This document shows positions 1 to 4,795 of a DNA stretch of 4,795 nt, one piece after another (the stretch's first letter is position 1; the number at the start of each line of letters is the position of its first letter). The DNA comes from a virus (lineage: Duplodnaviria; Heunggongvirae; Uroviricota; Caudoviricetes), in IMG/VR virus record IMGVR_UViG_2563366961_000005. One strand, 5' to 3'. A program made the position numbers and the translations under genes. Under the pieces are notes generated by a model. It saw only the letters and a program-made list of their open reading frames with translations. It did no database searches and was not told where the DNA came from.

Positions 1-91
1 GCTGTCGTTCTCAAAATCGGTGGAGCTGCATGACAAAGTCATCGGGCATTATCTGAACATAAAACACTATCAATAAGTTGGAGTCATTACC
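1..91 (+). mobile_element. IS1 terminal fragment (IRR end, ending ...GGAGTCATTACC at 91); the rest of the element lies left of the window
   Basis: Sequence recognised from memory as the IS1 right end. Its exact reverse complement recurs at 4701-4791 (91/91 bp, checked by hand). Boundary may be 91 or 92. Confidence 0.88.
2..76 (+). CDS. insB: IS1 transposase InsB, 3' end only (partial)
   Basis: Frame 2 translates to [24 protein letters not shown] with stop TAA at 74-76, which I recognise as the InsB C-terminus. Upstream part is outside the window. Confidence 0.8.
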   Translation: [24 protein letters not shown]

Positions 92-105
92 CACGAAGTA
101 AAAGA

Positions 106-555
106 ATGGTTGTACAGAGCAGAACGATAATAAACACGCATCACATTTTAGGTAACACCATGACAAACATCGAACGATTAGAACGCTGTGCTGACATTAT
201 GCGCCGCAGATGGATTTATGACCCTGAAGCGGGTTTATTATTCAGCCGGGAGACAAAAGACGTGATAAAAGGCGGCATGACTCGCAAGGGCCATTTAAAC
301 GTAAGCATTCAGGAAGGTGATTTTAAAGCGACGCTTAGTTATCAAAAAGCCTGCTATGTATACACATACGGCGCTTATGATGAGACGTTATATGAAGTTC
401 ACCACGTGAATATGAACAAACAAGACAACCGCATCAAGAATATTCGCCTGATGCCAAAGGAACAGCACCGCCGGATCCATAAAAACGTCCGCAAACTCAT
501 TCGGCTGGGCCACACTCAATGGCTGCAACCACAAGTAATAGAGGCATCACTATGA
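106..555 (+). CDS. HNH endonuclease, phage type. True start may be ATG 160 (MTNIERL...), giving 132 aa
   Basis: HNH motif EVHHVNMNKQDNRIKNIRLMPKEQHRRIH (His-His, Asn, Asn, His...His) preceded by the RW...DPE.G.L segment typical of phage HNH_3-like proteins. The frame is open back to position 34 inside IS1, so the start is uncertain. Confidence 0.72.
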   Translation: MVVQSRTIINTHHILGNTMTNIERLERCADIMRRRWIYDPEAGLLFSRETKDVIKGGMTRKGHLNVSIQEGDFKATLSYQKACYVYTYGAYDETLYEVHHVNMNKQDNRIKNIRLMPKEQHRRIHKNVRKLIRLGHTQWLQPQVIEASL

Positions 556-622
556 CGAGAAACGTAGTTGATGATTTTTCAGTTGTAAAAGTAAGCACAA
601 ATATTTAAGAGAGGAAATTACC

Positions 623-934
623 ATGTACTACCCAAATAACACTTACCTTAACCTGGTTGGCAATAACTATAAACCATCCTCCGAAGTAATGGAAAAAAAA
701 GCATTCGACAAAGCAATGAGCGCCGAGGCAGATCGCATCGTTGACATGCTGCCCGACTTACTCAGTGGAATTATTGACGAATCCGCTGCCGCGTTATTCA
801 GCCAGATGCCGGAATGTATGGCCGGTGAAGATCCTGTGACTCATGACGTATTAAATGAAACCAGTATTCGCCGGAGGCTTGCCGGAAAGGTGGCAAATAA
901 GATCGGCCACGGCATAAGTTTTCTTCAGAAATAA
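623..934 (+). CDS. hypothetical protein, 103 aa, no recognisable motif
   Basis: ORF with strong RBS GAGAGGAAA 5-13 nt upstream of the ATG; same strand and tight spacing as neighbours. Confidence 0.6.
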   Translation: MYYPNNTYLNLVGNNYKPSSEVMEKKAFDKAMSAEADRIVDMLPDLLSGIIDESAAALFSQMPECMAGEDPVTHDVLNETSIRRRLAGKVANKIGHGISFLQK

Positions 935-952
935 GATGAATGGAGATAAGAA

Positions 953-2413: not shown

Positions 2414-2830
2414 ATGAGCACAGAAATTACAGAAAACAATGATTTAGATAATTTTGAGAGCGCTACGCAGGAAAAAAGGCGCGTAGGCAGACCGTCAAAA
2501 TATAGTAACAAGATGGCGACGCAGATCGCGCTACTGGTTGGTGAGGGGTACAGCCTGAGAAAAATAGCCAGCATGGAGGGATACCCATCACTAGCAACGA
2601 TCCTACGCTGGCAAATCGAGTTTCCCGACTTCAGGGAAGCAATCGGCTGGATGAAGTGGCTGCATAGTCACGACCTGGGCCAACAAGCAATTGAGGCGAT
2701 CGAGAGCGTAAACCTTAATGATGAAGATGCCGCGATGCAGCTTAAGAAAGCACAAGCGAAAGCACGGGCGCTGATAGACACCGCGAAGTTATTAGACCTG
2801 AAATCAAATCCATTTGGGGGCAATGAGTAA
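2414..2830 (+). CDS. phage terminase small subunit-like DNA-binding protein, 138 aa
   Basis: N-terminal segment RRVGRPSKYSNKMATQIALLVGEGYSLRKIASMEGYPSLATILRWQIEFPDFREAI matches the GRPxKY...GxSLRxIA...PSxxTxxRW...EFR pattern I associate with phage small terminase HTH domains. RBS GAGGGGGGAAAC upstream. Confidence 0.68.
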   Translation: MSTEITENNDLDNFESATQEKRRVGRPSKYSNKMATQIALLVGEGYSLRKIASMEGYPSLATILRWQIEFPDFREAIGWMKWLHSHDLGQQAIEAIESVNLNDEDAAMQLKKAQAKARALIDTAKLLDLKSNPFGGNE

Positions 2831-3234
2831 TGAGTTTATTCACAAGCAAACAAGGCCAACGCCTTTTTACCAATCGAGAGCAGAACGGCGGCGCTGACCG
2901 CTACGAAGCATTGAGAGTTAAGCCTTTCCGTGACTGGTCACACGCAGATCTCCAGTGTTACAACGCCATTTGGATTGAGTCGATGAACGAGCTTATCGAA
3001 GAGTATTACATCGAGCCAAAAGAGCCGATAATGGGCCAAATCCTGGCTATCTATGGAAATGCATTGGTTGAACTGAATGGCAGCCATAAAAGCGTTTTGG
3101 CGCTCAATTCGCTGGCGTATCGTGACGATCTTCCGGTGGCTGAACAAGGGGTGCATTTGTGGGAGATCGCCCAGGTGGAACGGGAACTAAATCAAGGGGG
3201 AAGCGATGCCGATGAAACACAAAGCTGTCATTGA
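2830..3234 (+). CDS. hypothetical protein, 134 aa; translationally coupled to the upstream gene
   Basis: Start ATG overlaps the upstream stop (TAATG at 2828-2832). No recognisable motif. Confidence 0.55.
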   Translation: MSLFTSKQGQRLFTNREQNGGADRYEALRVKPFRDWSHADLQCYNAIWIESMNELIEEYYIEPKEPIMGQILAIYGNALVELNGSHKSVLALNSLAYRDDLPVAEQGVHLWEIAQVERELNQGGSDADETQSCH

Positions 3235-3652
3235 GAAAATCAAGCGACAACTACGCGAAGAAATCGAAGATATTAACCGCGATGCAGCGACGGCAGTCTA
3301 TGCAATCGGGATGGAAGTAATTGCCAATGCAGCAGCAAAAACGCCACGCGATACAGGGACGCTAATCGGTGGCTATTACGATCCGCAGGTAAGCCAGGAT
3401 GATGAAGGGGCGCATTGCACGGTAGGAAACACGGTCCGCTATGCCTTTTGGGTGCATGAAATGCCAGGGACACTGAAAGGACAACCGCGCGAGCATTTCG
3501 GAAAAACCCGTGAAGGTATCGCCTTTGGTGGCGGCACTGGTCGCGGTGAATATTGGGAACCAGACGGCGAACCTGAATTTCTTAAAAAGGCGCTTGGGGA
3601 AGAGTATCACAGCGAGTACATGGATATAGCGAAACGATATTTAAAACGATGA
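3206..3652 (+). CDS. HK97 gp10-family phage morphogenesis protein (head-tail joining / tail completion type)
   Basis: Motifs KTPRDTGTL and VGNTVRYAFWVHEMPG resemble the PxDTGxL ... VGTNVxYAxxVEFG signature of the HK97 gp10 family. RBS AGGGGGAA upstream; overlaps the previous ORF by 29 nt. Confidence 0.55.
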   Translation: MPMKHKAVIEKIKRQLREEIEDINRDAATAVYAIGMEVIANAAAKTPRDTGTLIGGYYDPQVSQDDEGAHCTVGNTVRYAFWVHEMPGTLKGQPREHFGKTREGIAFGGGTGRGEYWEPDGEPEFLKKALGEEYHSEYMDIAKRYLKR

Positions 3653-3661
3653 GGTGAAATC

Positions 3662-4705
3662 ATGAGTGAACAAGTAGGAAGCCTCCAGATAGATATTGAC
3701 CTGAAGACAAAAAATTTACTGGTGAGCCAGCGCCAGGCTGAGGCCGCATTAGACGACATTGGCAATAAGATTGGCGGCGCAGAGCGACAAGCAGCAAAAC
3801 TTAACACGCAGCTAACAAAAACATCGCGGGCTATTAGCGGCAATCTGCGTGCCGGATTCCAGCAGGCTGGATACCAGATCCAGGACTTCGTGGTGCAGGT
3901 CCAGTCAGGACAAAGCGCACTGATAGCGTTGTCACAGCAAGGCAGTCAGTTATTGAGTGCCTTCGGTGGCTGGGGCATTGCTCTTGGTGCGGCACTTACG
4001 GTTGGTGTATCGCTGTTTAAAGCCCTGACAGGTGAAACCGAGGAGACAACAGACAAGACCGAAGTATTTGAAAAGGCTTGCAGTAATTTACGCCAGGTAA
4101 TGGCCCTGAACGAGCAAGGCGTAAACGTCCTGTCAAACGAATACGCCAACCTCGCGAAACAGTCAGCCGAGGCCGCTGCGATGGTCGAACGCCATTTAAC
4201 ACTGAAGCTACGCGAAGCCAAATCAGCGATGAGTGACTATATCACCAACACACTGGACGCACAGAACGCGACTGCGGGTTTTGGGGTGATTGGATCTGAC
4301 AGTTTACTCGACATGATGCAGGCGATGCGTGCGCTGGGCGTTGAAACGTATGATTACGCCGACGCAATGGACCAGTTGAACGGCATGGGCCTACGTGGTG
4401 CGCAGATCCATAAAGAGCTAAACCGCGAACTTGATGATATGGCAGATAAAACTGGCGTATCAAAAGAAGCGCTCTTTGATATGTGCCAGGAATTAATGGC
4501 GGTCGCTAAAGCGCCGACAGCGGACAGCATTTCAGCACTATCAAACCGCATTGCCAGCATGAACCCTACGACAGCGGAAGGTGTTGGCCTGTTTAATGAA
4601 CTACAGCAGGCATTGATTAAAGCCGCTATTGAGCTTCAACAGTTCGGGGATATTAGCGAAGATACCGCCAATAAACTTGATGTATTAAATCACGCGGCGG
4701 GGTAA
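3662..4705 (+). CDS. tail tape-measure-like protein, N-terminal 346 aa only; truncated by IS1, which supplies the final codon and stop
   Basis: Segment GYQIQDFVVQVQSGQSALIALSQQGSQLLSAFGGWGIALGAALTVG resembles the conserved N-terminal motif of tape-measure proteins such as lambda gpH (from memory). The ORF crosses the IS1 junction at 4700/4701: last codon GGG spans 4700-4702 and stop TAA at 4703-4705 lies inside the IS1 terminus GGTAATG. RBS GAGGTGA upstream. Confidence 0.6.
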   Translation: MSEQVGSLQIDIDLKTKNLLVSQRQAEAALDDIGNKIGGAERQAAKLNTQLTKTSRAISGNLRAGFQQAGYQIQDFVVQVQSGQSALIALSQQGSQLLSAFGGWGIALGAALTVGVSLFKALTGETEETTDKTEVFEKACSNLRQVMALNEQGVNVLSNEYANLAKQSAEAAAMVERHLTLKLREAKSAMSDYITNTLDAQNATAGFGVIGSDSLLDMMQAMRALGVETYDYADAMDQLNGMGLRGAQIHKELNRELDDMADKTGVSKEALFDMCQELMAVAKAPTADSISALSNRIASMNPTTAEGVGLFNELQQALIKAAIELQQFGDISEDTANKLDVLNHAAG

Positions 4706-4795
4706 TGACTCCAACTTATTGATAGTGTTTTATGTTCAGATAATGCCCGATGACTTTGTCATGCAGCTCCACCGATTTTGAGAACGACAGCGACT
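4701..4795 (-). mobile_element. IS1 terminal fragment (IRR end, GGTAATGACTCC...), inverted relative to the left copy; the rest of the element lies right of the window
   Basis: 4701-4791 is the exact reverse complement of 1-91. Confidence 0.88.
4716..4795 (-). CDS. insB: IS1 transposase InsB, 3' end only (partial), minus strand
   Basis: Mirror image of the InsB C-terminal coding segment at 2-76; stop codon complement at 4716-4718. Confidence 0.78.
   Translation of the reverse strand, partial: [25 protein letters not shown]

What the first reader, a model, noticed from the sequence alone, without database searches (positions are those of the whole stretch)
1..4795. Phage-derived 4.6-kb segment bracketed by two inward-facing IS1 right ends
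Positions 1-91 and 4701-4791 are perfect reverse complements (91/91). Both are the same IS1 end, carrying the InsB C-terminal coding sequence, so the two IS1 copies are inverted and face inward. This is the architecture of an IS1 composite transposon and also a substrate for inversion of the enclosed segment by homologous recombination. The enclosed genes (HNH, terS-like, gp10-like, tape measure) could therefore be mobilised or inverted as a unit.
Basis: partly seen in the sequence, partly recalled or inferred. Interest (0 to 1): 0.6.

Follow-up and report, generated by a model that had tools for sequence, protein, structure and literature searches.

The report
Two independent IS1 hits in a decaying prophage-like island
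The window is a single assembly contig from an E. coli chromosome, a piece of a cryptic phage-like island that was hit by two separate IS1 insertion events and never moved as a unit, which is ordinary genome decay.

Summary
Window 1-91 and 4701-4791 are perfect reverse complements, and both are the InsB-proximal (right) end of IS1. In a sister assembly both copies are complete 768-bp IS1 elements in inverted orientation.

The mobile-unit interpretation is not supported.
- The window is exactly the contig between two N-gaps of an E. coli 'KTE' scaffold, so its IS1 edges are where the assembler stopped.
- The interior (92-4700) lies in its native place, inside a ~12-kb IntZ/CPZ-55-type island between eutB and eutA. 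It is collinear with, and 99.98% identical to, uninterrupted copies.
- The right IS1 is the older event and occurs in many genomes. It truncates the tape-measure gene at codon 347, abuts eutS after a ~14.4-kb deletion, and has no target-site duplication (TSD).
- The left IS1 is the later event, seen in two assemblies only. It is a simple insertion into a 58-aa excisionase-like gene, with a perfect 9-bp duplication (CACGAAGTA).
- No duplication flanks the whole unit, and no copy was found on plasmids, in phages or at another locus.

The pair is formally a composite-transposon or inversion substrate, but there is no evidence it has acted as one. This is ordinary, already known biology.

The parts
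1..91 (+). Last 91 nt of the left IS1 copy (insA->insB reads left to right). The InsB C-terminus and stop occupy 2-76; the right terminal inverted repeat occupies about 69-91.
   Evidence: Identical to L039 1047-1137, the end of a complete 768-bp IS1. Gene calls carry PF03811, PF12759 and PF03400.
92..100 (+). Inner copy of the 9-bp target-site duplication CACGAAGTA made by the left IS1.
   Evidence: The same 9 bp lie immediately outside the left IS1 in L008 and L039. They occur once in genomes without this IS1.
92..130 (+). 3' remnant (codons 47-58 plus stop) of a 58-aa MerR/excisionase-like HTH gene split by the left IS1.
   Evidence: The intact gene is at L004 6293-6469. It matches Pfam MerR/HTH_17 and phrog_66 excisionase. 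The predicted 57-aa fusion protein exists exactly, as P0012 from E. coli KTE143.
160..555 (+). HNH endonuclease gene (131 aa).
   Evidence: PF13392 1.3e-8; phrog_7545.
623..2330 (+). Five small genes of unknown function (103, 148, 112, 55 and 91 aa) at 623-934, 953-1399, 1404-1742, 1763-1930 and 2055-2330.
   Evidence: ORFs. There is no family match that passes a curated cutoff. The genes are conserved in order in all related islands.
2414..2830 (+). Terminase small-subunit-like gene (138 aa), a homologue of K-12 YffO.
   Evidence: PF20901 8.6e-8; phrog_1482 8e-12; 53% identity to YffO.
2830..3234 (+). Gene of unknown function (134 aa).
3206..3652 (+). HK97 gp10-like / tail-completion (Neck1) gene (148 aa).
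   Evidence: PF04883 6e-4, 21.1 bits against a cutoff of 21.4; phrog_5 4e-8; RefSeq annotation of the homologue in L001.
3662..4705 (+). Tape-measure gene truncated to 347 of 729 codons. The stop codon TAA (4703-4705) is supplied by the IS1 terminal repeat.
   Evidence: phrog_1538 3e-47 over profile positions 1-349 of 811. The intact 729-aa version is in L001, L015 and L036. The intact sequence continues past window 4700 in L036.
4701..4795 (-). Last 95 nt of the right IS1 copy, inverted relative to the left copy. The window ends at an assembly gap.
   Evidence: In L042 the N-run begins immediately after the base matching window 4795.

Best explanation
The window is one contig of a draft E. 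coli genome. It is cut out of a ~12-kb IntZ/CPZ-55-type phage-like island that sits in its original integration site between eutB and eutA. The two IS1 ends record two separate events in situ.

Event 1 is older and is shared by many genomes. An IS1 lies at codon 347 of the island's tape-measure gene, and its other end is joined to the 3' end of eutS. The rest of the island and eutA through eutP (~14.4 kb) are missing, and there is no target-site duplication. This is the signature of an IS1-associated adjacent deletion, or of recombination between two IS1 copies.

Event 2 is recent and occurs in one small lineage. A second, identical IS1 inserted by ordinary transposition into the 58-aa excisionase-like gene upstream of the HNH gene. 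It lies in the opposite orientation and made a perfect 9-bp duplication.

The result looks like an inverted-IS1 composite transposon, but it arose by decay of a grounded island and not by movement of a unit.

Shown: the identity and completeness of both IS1 copies, the TSD, the order of events across genomes, the native context and the deletion endpoints. Inferred: the molecular route of the deletion, and that the pair has never transposed or inverted.
For: (1) The window equals L042 1047-5841 exactly (100%, 4795 nt), bounded by N-runs at 512-1046 and 5842-6176.
(2) L039 (KB732946.1) matches the window at 100% and has no gaps. Its order is 57-aa fusion, insA, insB, HNH ... TMP'(347 aa), insB(-), insA(-).
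(3) The left IS1 is 768 bp and is flanked on both sides by CACGAAGTA. The 9 bp occur once in L036 and L004. The fusion protein predicted from 'TSD + IS1 left end' exists exactly in E. coli KTE143, whereas the 8-bp-TSD and no-TSD predictions do not.
(4) L003, L004, L005, L034, L041 and L045 are 99.9-99.98% identical over window 92-4795. They carry the right IS1 at the identical base but no left IS1. The truncated TMP is listed in 168 blocks of the collection, against 2 contigs for the fusion protein.
(5) L036 and L015 are 99.98% identical over 92-4700, have neither IS1, and have a 729-aa TMP.
(6) The outer flank of the right IS1 aligns to eutS in CEA106S (L046 from 16341). The inner flank ends at L046 1946. 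This gives 14,394 bp missing and flanks ACGCGGCGG / CACAAAGCG, so no TSD.
(7) The island context is eutB-intZ...eutA in L001, L002 and L048, and K-12 CPZ-55 sits at the same site with 90% IntZ identity. eutA/eutB is a known prophage hot spot (PMC6652756, PMC6379469).
(8) Absence of a TSD through adjacent deletion or IS-IS recombination is well documented (PMC11708052).
Against: The order across the 768-bp repeats in L039 rests on a short-read, paired-end scaffold assembly. I could not inspect reads. All four IS1 junction sequences would be identical if the segment were inverted, so an inverted isomer, or a mixed population, cannot be excluded from assemblies alone. The route of the 14.4-kb deletion is not resolved, because no intermediate genome was seen. 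Candidate routes are a one-step adjacent deletion and IS1-IS1 recombination. The outer 9-mers of the unit share 6 of 9 bases, which I treat as chance (about 1% by binomial, my own estimate).
Confidence: 0.9

Rival explanations
1. The unit IS1-segment-IS1 is a genuine composite transposon (Tn1681-like, with inverted IS1) that transposed into this place, or is actively mobile as a unit.
For: Two complete, 100% identical IS1 copies bracket 4.6 kb. From general knowledge, IS1 composite transposons with direct (Tn9) or inverted (Tn1681) IS1 copies exist. The outer 9-mers share 6 of 9 bases.
Against: Outer and inner flanks of the left IS1 rebuild an uninterrupted 58-aa gene plus one 9-bp duplication. 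The segment is collinear with the intact island at the same chromosomal site in relatives. One-IS1 intermediates exist. No TSD flanks the unit. There is no copy on 72,556 plasmids, in 50,697 phage records or at another locus in complete E. coli genomes.
Confidence: 0.03
2. The left IS1 arose from the right IS1 by intramolecular replicative transposition (duplicative inversion). That process makes a second, inverted copy with the same end facing inward and flips the segment. Alternatively, the segment now flips by RecA recombination between the two copies.
For: The geometry fits: same ends inward, identical copies, and a 9-bp duplication of the target. By my own derivation, the four junction sequences are the same for the simple-insertion and inverted isomers, so short-read contigs such as the window cannot tell them apart.
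Against: The gap-free scaffold L039 and the scaffold L042 both place the segment in the ancestral, collinear orientation with the TSD as a direct repeat around the left IS1. No place with the truncated TMP gene in the opposite orientation next to the fusion gene appeared among the 24 longest contigs read.
Confidence: 0.06
3. The inverted repeat is purely an assembly artefact: repeat k-mers were stuck on the contig ends, and no IS1 is really adjacent on one or both sides.
For: The window is exactly a gap-bounded contig. Contigs commonly end in collapsed repeats.
Against: An independent assembly resolves the left copy completely and at least 730 bp of the right copy, with unique flanks on the left. 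The right junction is reproduced in complete chromosomes CP164702, OZ039802, CP164447 and CP165028. The left junction yields a called protein in two assemblies.
Confidence: 0.01

Closest known systems
IS1 (IS1 family insertion sequence of Enterobacteriaceae) and its adjacent deletions
   Same: 768 bp. Terminal repeats GGTGATGCTGCCAACTTACTGAT / GGTAATGACTCCAACTTATTGAT. insA and insB ORFs with the IS1 Pfam domains. A 9-bp target duplication at the left copy. A TSD-less copy bordering a large deletion at the right, as is classic for IS1 (general knowledge; PMC11708052 for TSD loss).
   Different: Nothing unusual. The two copies are identical to each other over all the sequence that could be compared.
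IS1 composite transposons (Tn9 with direct IS1; Tn1681 with inverted IS1 flanking the heat-stable enterotoxin gene), cited from my own knowledge and not verified in the library
   Same: Two full IS1 copies bracket a few kb of cargo, here inverted as in Tn1681.
   Different: There is no duplication around the unit. The cargo is contiguous with its native neighbours. One-IS1 intermediates exist. There is no second location and no selectable cargo. It has the form of a composite transposon but no history of being one.
Cryptic prophage CPZ-55 of E. coli K-12 (between eutB and eutA)
   Same: Same integration site. IntZ 90% identical, YffL 92.5% (to the CEA106S version) and YffO 53% to the terS-like protein.
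   Different: The intact relatives of the window's island are larger (~12 kb against 6.8 kb). They carry HNH, gp10-like and a 729-aa tape-measure gene that K-12 lacks. The window's copy has lost its right third and attR to the IS1-linked deletion.

Membership tests
IS1 insertion sequence | Length of about 768 bp | tested here: met
   Left copy L039 370-1137 / L008 1165-1932 is 768 bp. Right copy L004 11040-11807 is 768 bp. They are 100% identical to each other.
IS1 insertion sequence | Imperfect ~23-bp terminal inverted repeats | tested here: met
   Read directly: GGTGATGCTGCCAACTTACTGAT at one end and GGTAATGACTCCAACTTATTGAT (complement) at the other.
IS1 insertion sequence | insA and insB reading frames (Zn-ribbon InsA, HTH_Tnp_IS1, DDE_Tnp_IS1) | tested here: met
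   Precomputed Pfam hits PF03811, PF12759 and PF03400 on the genes of both copies. The window encodes the InsB C-terminus.
IS1 insertion sequence | 8-9-bp target-site duplication at a simple insertion | tested here: met
   The left copy has CACGAAGTA on both sides, and the 9 bp are single in empty-site genomes. The right copy has none because it borders a deletion.
IS1 composite transposon | Two IS copies bracketing a cargo segment | tested here: met
   L039 shows the left copy complete and at least 730 bp of the right copy around window 92-4700.
IS1 composite transposon | Target-site duplication flanking the whole unit | tested here: not met
   The outer 9-mers are CACGAAGTA and CACAAAGCG.
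IS1 composite transposon | Unit found in a context foreign to its cargo, or at more than one locus or replicon | tested here: not met
   The cargo is collinear with the intact island at eutB/eutA. There is no plasmid or phage copy. The segment occurs only at eut in the genomes inspected.
IS1 composite transposon | Demonstrated transposition using the two outer ends | not testable with these tools
   This needs a mating-out or papillation assay.
IS-bounded invertible segment | Both orientations observed among genomes or reads | tested here: inconclusive
   Only the collinear orientation is seen, in the two assemblies that hold both IS1 copies. Reads are not available, and junction sequences cannot discriminate.
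CPZ-55-type integrative island | Integrated between eutB and eutA with an IntZ-type tyrosine integrase next to eutB | tested here: met
   L003, L004 and L001 have eutC-eutB-int(401 aa)-island. IntZ identity to K-12 is 90%. K-12 carries the annotated CPZ-55 feature at the same site.
CPZ-55-type integrative island | Shared cargo genes with K-12 CPZ-55 | tested here: inconclusive
   Only YffL, YffO (53%) and part of YffM have counterparts. HNH, gp10-like and TMP are absent from K-12.

The most novel reading that the evidence does not exclude
The IS1 bracket is mundane, but the thing it is eroding may not be. The intact ~12-kb element has an integrase, an excisionase-like HTH, HNH, five small unknown genes, a phased TTAGCG array, a TerS-like gene, a neck/gp10-like gene, a full 729-aa tape measure and an anti-repressor-like gene. 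It has no capsid, portal, large terminase, tail tube or lysis genes. The element is conserved, and near-identical cargo lies behind two different integrases. It could be an undescribed kind of phage satellite that brings its own packaging-recognition and tail-length proteins, and not a random prophage remnant. Separately, the two identical inverted IS1 copies might still flip or mobilise the segment at low frequency.
Probability: 0.2. Interest if true: 0.5.

Novelty: already known. Interest (0 to 1): 0.1.

Why it matters
It matters little beyond annotation. It shows how a draft-assembly contig that ends in IS repeats can mimic a composite transposon. It also gives a clean three-stage series of island decay: intact island, then IS1 plus a 14.4-kb deletion that also removes eutA-eutP, then a second IS1 in the excisionase-like gene. 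In this lineage the eut operon is largely destroyed. The island has lost attR and its putative excisionase gene is disrupted, so it is fixed in place.

Tried and rejected
- Exact look-up of a spurious 51-aa ORF spanning the left junction: not on record.
- The search for homologous proteins with the predicted junction fusion protein did not list it. The exact cluster look-up then found it.
I reached the scaffold instead by looking up window proteins with short flanks. Three look-ups with other proteins or flanks did not display it.
- The single base difference between the window and L004 (position 1330) is synonymous, so no protein variant could be used to pull out the lineage.
- Megablast against phage genomes gave no match. 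Against plasmids there was only one irrelevant 320-bp match at 83%.
- Literature searches linking CPZ-55 to satellites or PICIs returned no such link. A search on satellites carrying a tape measure found nothing specific, and a search for Tn1681 returned nothing useful.
- Composite-transposon origin, pure assembly artefact and duplicative inversion were considered. They were rejected or down-weighted as set out under the rival explanations.
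Full report
**Observation.** The window carries a perfect inverted repeat, 1-92 against 4700-4791. The repeat proper is IS1. The left copy ends at base 91 with …GTTGGAGTCATTACC. The right copy starts at 4701 with GGTAATGACTCCAAC… and runs to the window end, so 95 nt of it are present. The 92nd pair is a chance match of flanking bases. Window 2-76 encodes [24 protein letters not shown]. This is the C-terminus of the gene that carries PF03400 (DDE_Tnp_IS1) when the same sequence is seen in longer loci. The arms alone account for 115,230 megablast places in 4,972 of 5,426 complete E. 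coli genomes.

**Where the window comes from.** An exact look-up of window proteins recovered two E. coli 'KTE' scaffolds that match the window at 100% over all 4,795 bases. In KE137130.1 (L042) the match is 1047-5841, bounded by N-runs at 512-1046 and 5842-6176. The window is thus precisely the contig between two assembly gaps, and both gaps lie inside IS1 copies. In KB732946.1 (L039) the region is gap-free. Its order is:
- a 57-aa fusion gene;
- IS1 (insA then insB, 768 bp, L039 370-1137);
- HNH and the following genes, up to a 347-aa truncated tape measure;
- IS1 in the opposite orientation, at least 730 bp of it identical to the first copy, up to the end of the locus.

Part of the 'bracketing' is therefore simply where a short-read assembler stopped, but both IS1 copies are real and complete.

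**What the interior is.** Window 92-4700 matches E. coli chromosomes only. There is no megablast match among 50,697 phage records, and the 72,556 plasmids give one irrelevant 320-bp match. In complete genomes the homologous segment lies inside a ~12-kb element between eutB and eutA (L001 at 97% identity; L002; L048). That is the site of cryptic prophage CPZ-55 in K-12 and a known prophage hot spot (PMC6652756; PMC6379469). K-12 IntZ is 90% identical to this island's integrase. YffL is 92.5% identical to a neighbouring protein, and YffO is 53% identical to the window's TerS-like protein.

The genes in the window, in order, are:
- HNH endonuclease (PF13392);
- five small genes of unknown function;
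- an Sf6-type TerS-like gene (PF20901, phrog_1482);
- an unknown 134-aa gene;
- a gp10/Neck1-like gene (phrog_5);
- the first 347 codons of a tape-measure gene (phrog_1538, 3e-47).

The intact tape measure is 729 aa and matches phrog_1538 end to end. In the window its reading frame is closed by the TAA inside the IS1 terminal repeat, at 4703-4705.

**History of the two IS1 copies.** Three states of the same island, all at least 99.9% identical to the window over the shared sequence, are on record.
- State 0 has no IS1 and a full 729-aa tape measure. Examples are L015 and L036 (a gut-metagenome scaffold), L025 and L043.
- State 1 has the right IS1 only, at exactly the window's position. Examples are complete chromosomes CP164702, OZ039802, CP164447 and CP165028, plus others. 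The truncated protein is indexed in 168 blocks of the collection.
- State 2 has both IS1 copies. Only the two KTE scaffolds show it. The junction-specific 57-aa fusion protein is recorded on just two contigs.

In state 1 the outer end of the right IS1 is joined to the 3' end of eutS. Mapped onto CEA106S, the inner flank ends at L046 1946 and the outer flank resumes at 16341. That leaves 14,394 bp missing: the rest of the island, eutA through eutP, and 17 bp of eutS. The flanking 9-mers differ (ACGCGGCGG against CACAAAGCG), so there is no TSD. A TSD-less IS next to a deletion is the standard footprint of an adjacent deletion or of recombination between two IS copies (PMC11708052).

The left IS1 is a simple insertion. 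The empty site reads …ttgggaaCACGAAGTAaaagaatgg… (L004, L036). The filled site reads …ttgggaaCACGAAGTA|IS1|CACGAAGTAaaagaatgg…. I predicted the fusion protein expected from a 9-bp duplication followed by the IS1 left end (…FWEHEVGDAANLLI). That exact sequence exists in E. coli KTE143, whereas the versions predicted for an 8-bp duplication or for none do not. The gene it interrupts is a 58-aa MerR/excisionase-like HTH.

**Test of the composite-transposon reading.** Formally the structure qualifies, with two complete identical IS1 copies around 4.6 kb. Every historical test fails, however.
- The 9 bp outside the unit are not a duplication (CACGAAGTA against CACAAAGCG, 6 of 9 shared, which I regard as chance).
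- The cargo is contiguous with its ancestral neighbours on the left, and with the ancestral tape-measure sequence on the right.
- One-IS1 intermediates are common.
- The unit was not found anywhere else.

The one difference is that the right IS1 lacks a TSD because of the deletion, and not because the unit moved.

**Inversion.** Two identical 768-bp inverted repeats 4.6 kb apart are a legitimate substrate for RecA-mediated inversion. Intramolecular replicative transposition by the right IS1 would also produce exactly this 'same ends inward' geometry. Working through the products, all four IS1 junction sequences are the same in the collinear and the inverted isomer, so a contig like the window cannot distinguish them. 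The two scaffolds place the segment in the ancestral orientation, and no inverted arrangement appeared among the contigs read. Only long reads could exclude a minority isomer.

**Verdict.** This is ordinary IS1-driven erosion of a grounded CPZ-55-type island, seen through the ends of a draft-assembly contig. Interest is low and the biology is already known.

**Side observations.** The intact island is compact and conserved. Near-identical cargo (99.3-99.6%) also lies behind a different 388-aa integrase with an AlpA-like gene. It carries TerS-like, HNH, neck and tape-measure genes but no capsid, portal or TerL genes. Whether it is a satellite-like element or merely a remnant is open, and I found no paper that classifies it. 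A phased array of TTAGCG motifs lies just upstream of the TerS-like gene and is conserved in most relatives. It is absent from the divergent K-12 CPZ-55.

Noticed in passing
window 2343-2402 (also 2058-2063): TTAGCG occurs at 2343, 2354 and 2365, an 11-bp spacing, and again at 2397, 17 bp before the TerS-like start codon. In total there are 9 copies in the window against 2.5 expected, and GTTAGCG occurs 4 times against 0.43 expected. The array is conserved upstream of the TerS-like gene in relatives down to about 87% identity, with the second copy TTAGCT in some. It is absent upstream of K-12 yffO. It may be a binding array for the TerS-like protein or for a regulator.
   Followed up: partly
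window 92-4700; intact form L001 8640-20860, L036, L048: The underlying ~12-kb eutB/eutA island has int, an excisionase-like HTH, HNH, a TerS-like gene, a gp10/Neck1-like gene, a full 729-aa tape measure and an anti-repressor-like gene. It has no capsid, portal, TerL, tail tube or lysis genes. Near-identical cargo also lies behind a different 388-aa integrase plus AlpA (L014, L022, L027, L037). Possibly a satellite-like element. It is not classified in the papers I could search.
   Followed up: partly
window 1214-1320 (inside ORF 953-1399): A 36-nt direct repeat (89% identical, with a third degenerate unit) encodes the repeated peptide TRQYF(E/D)GELDDF…YFDG in a 148-aa protein of unknown function.
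   Followed up: no
L004 11808-13562; L003 11803-13561: In the genomes with the IS1-linked deletion, a glycosyltransferase gene (356 aa, GT4 family) lies between eutS and maeB. It is absent at that position in CEA106S (L046). In these genomes eutS also loses its last codons to the IS1 junction, and eutA-eutP are deleted, so the eut pathway is expected to be lost.
   Followed up: no
L001 22383-23609 (NZ_CP166722.1): In strain CEA106S, which has the intact island, eutH is annotated as a pseudogene with an internal stop.
   Followed up: no
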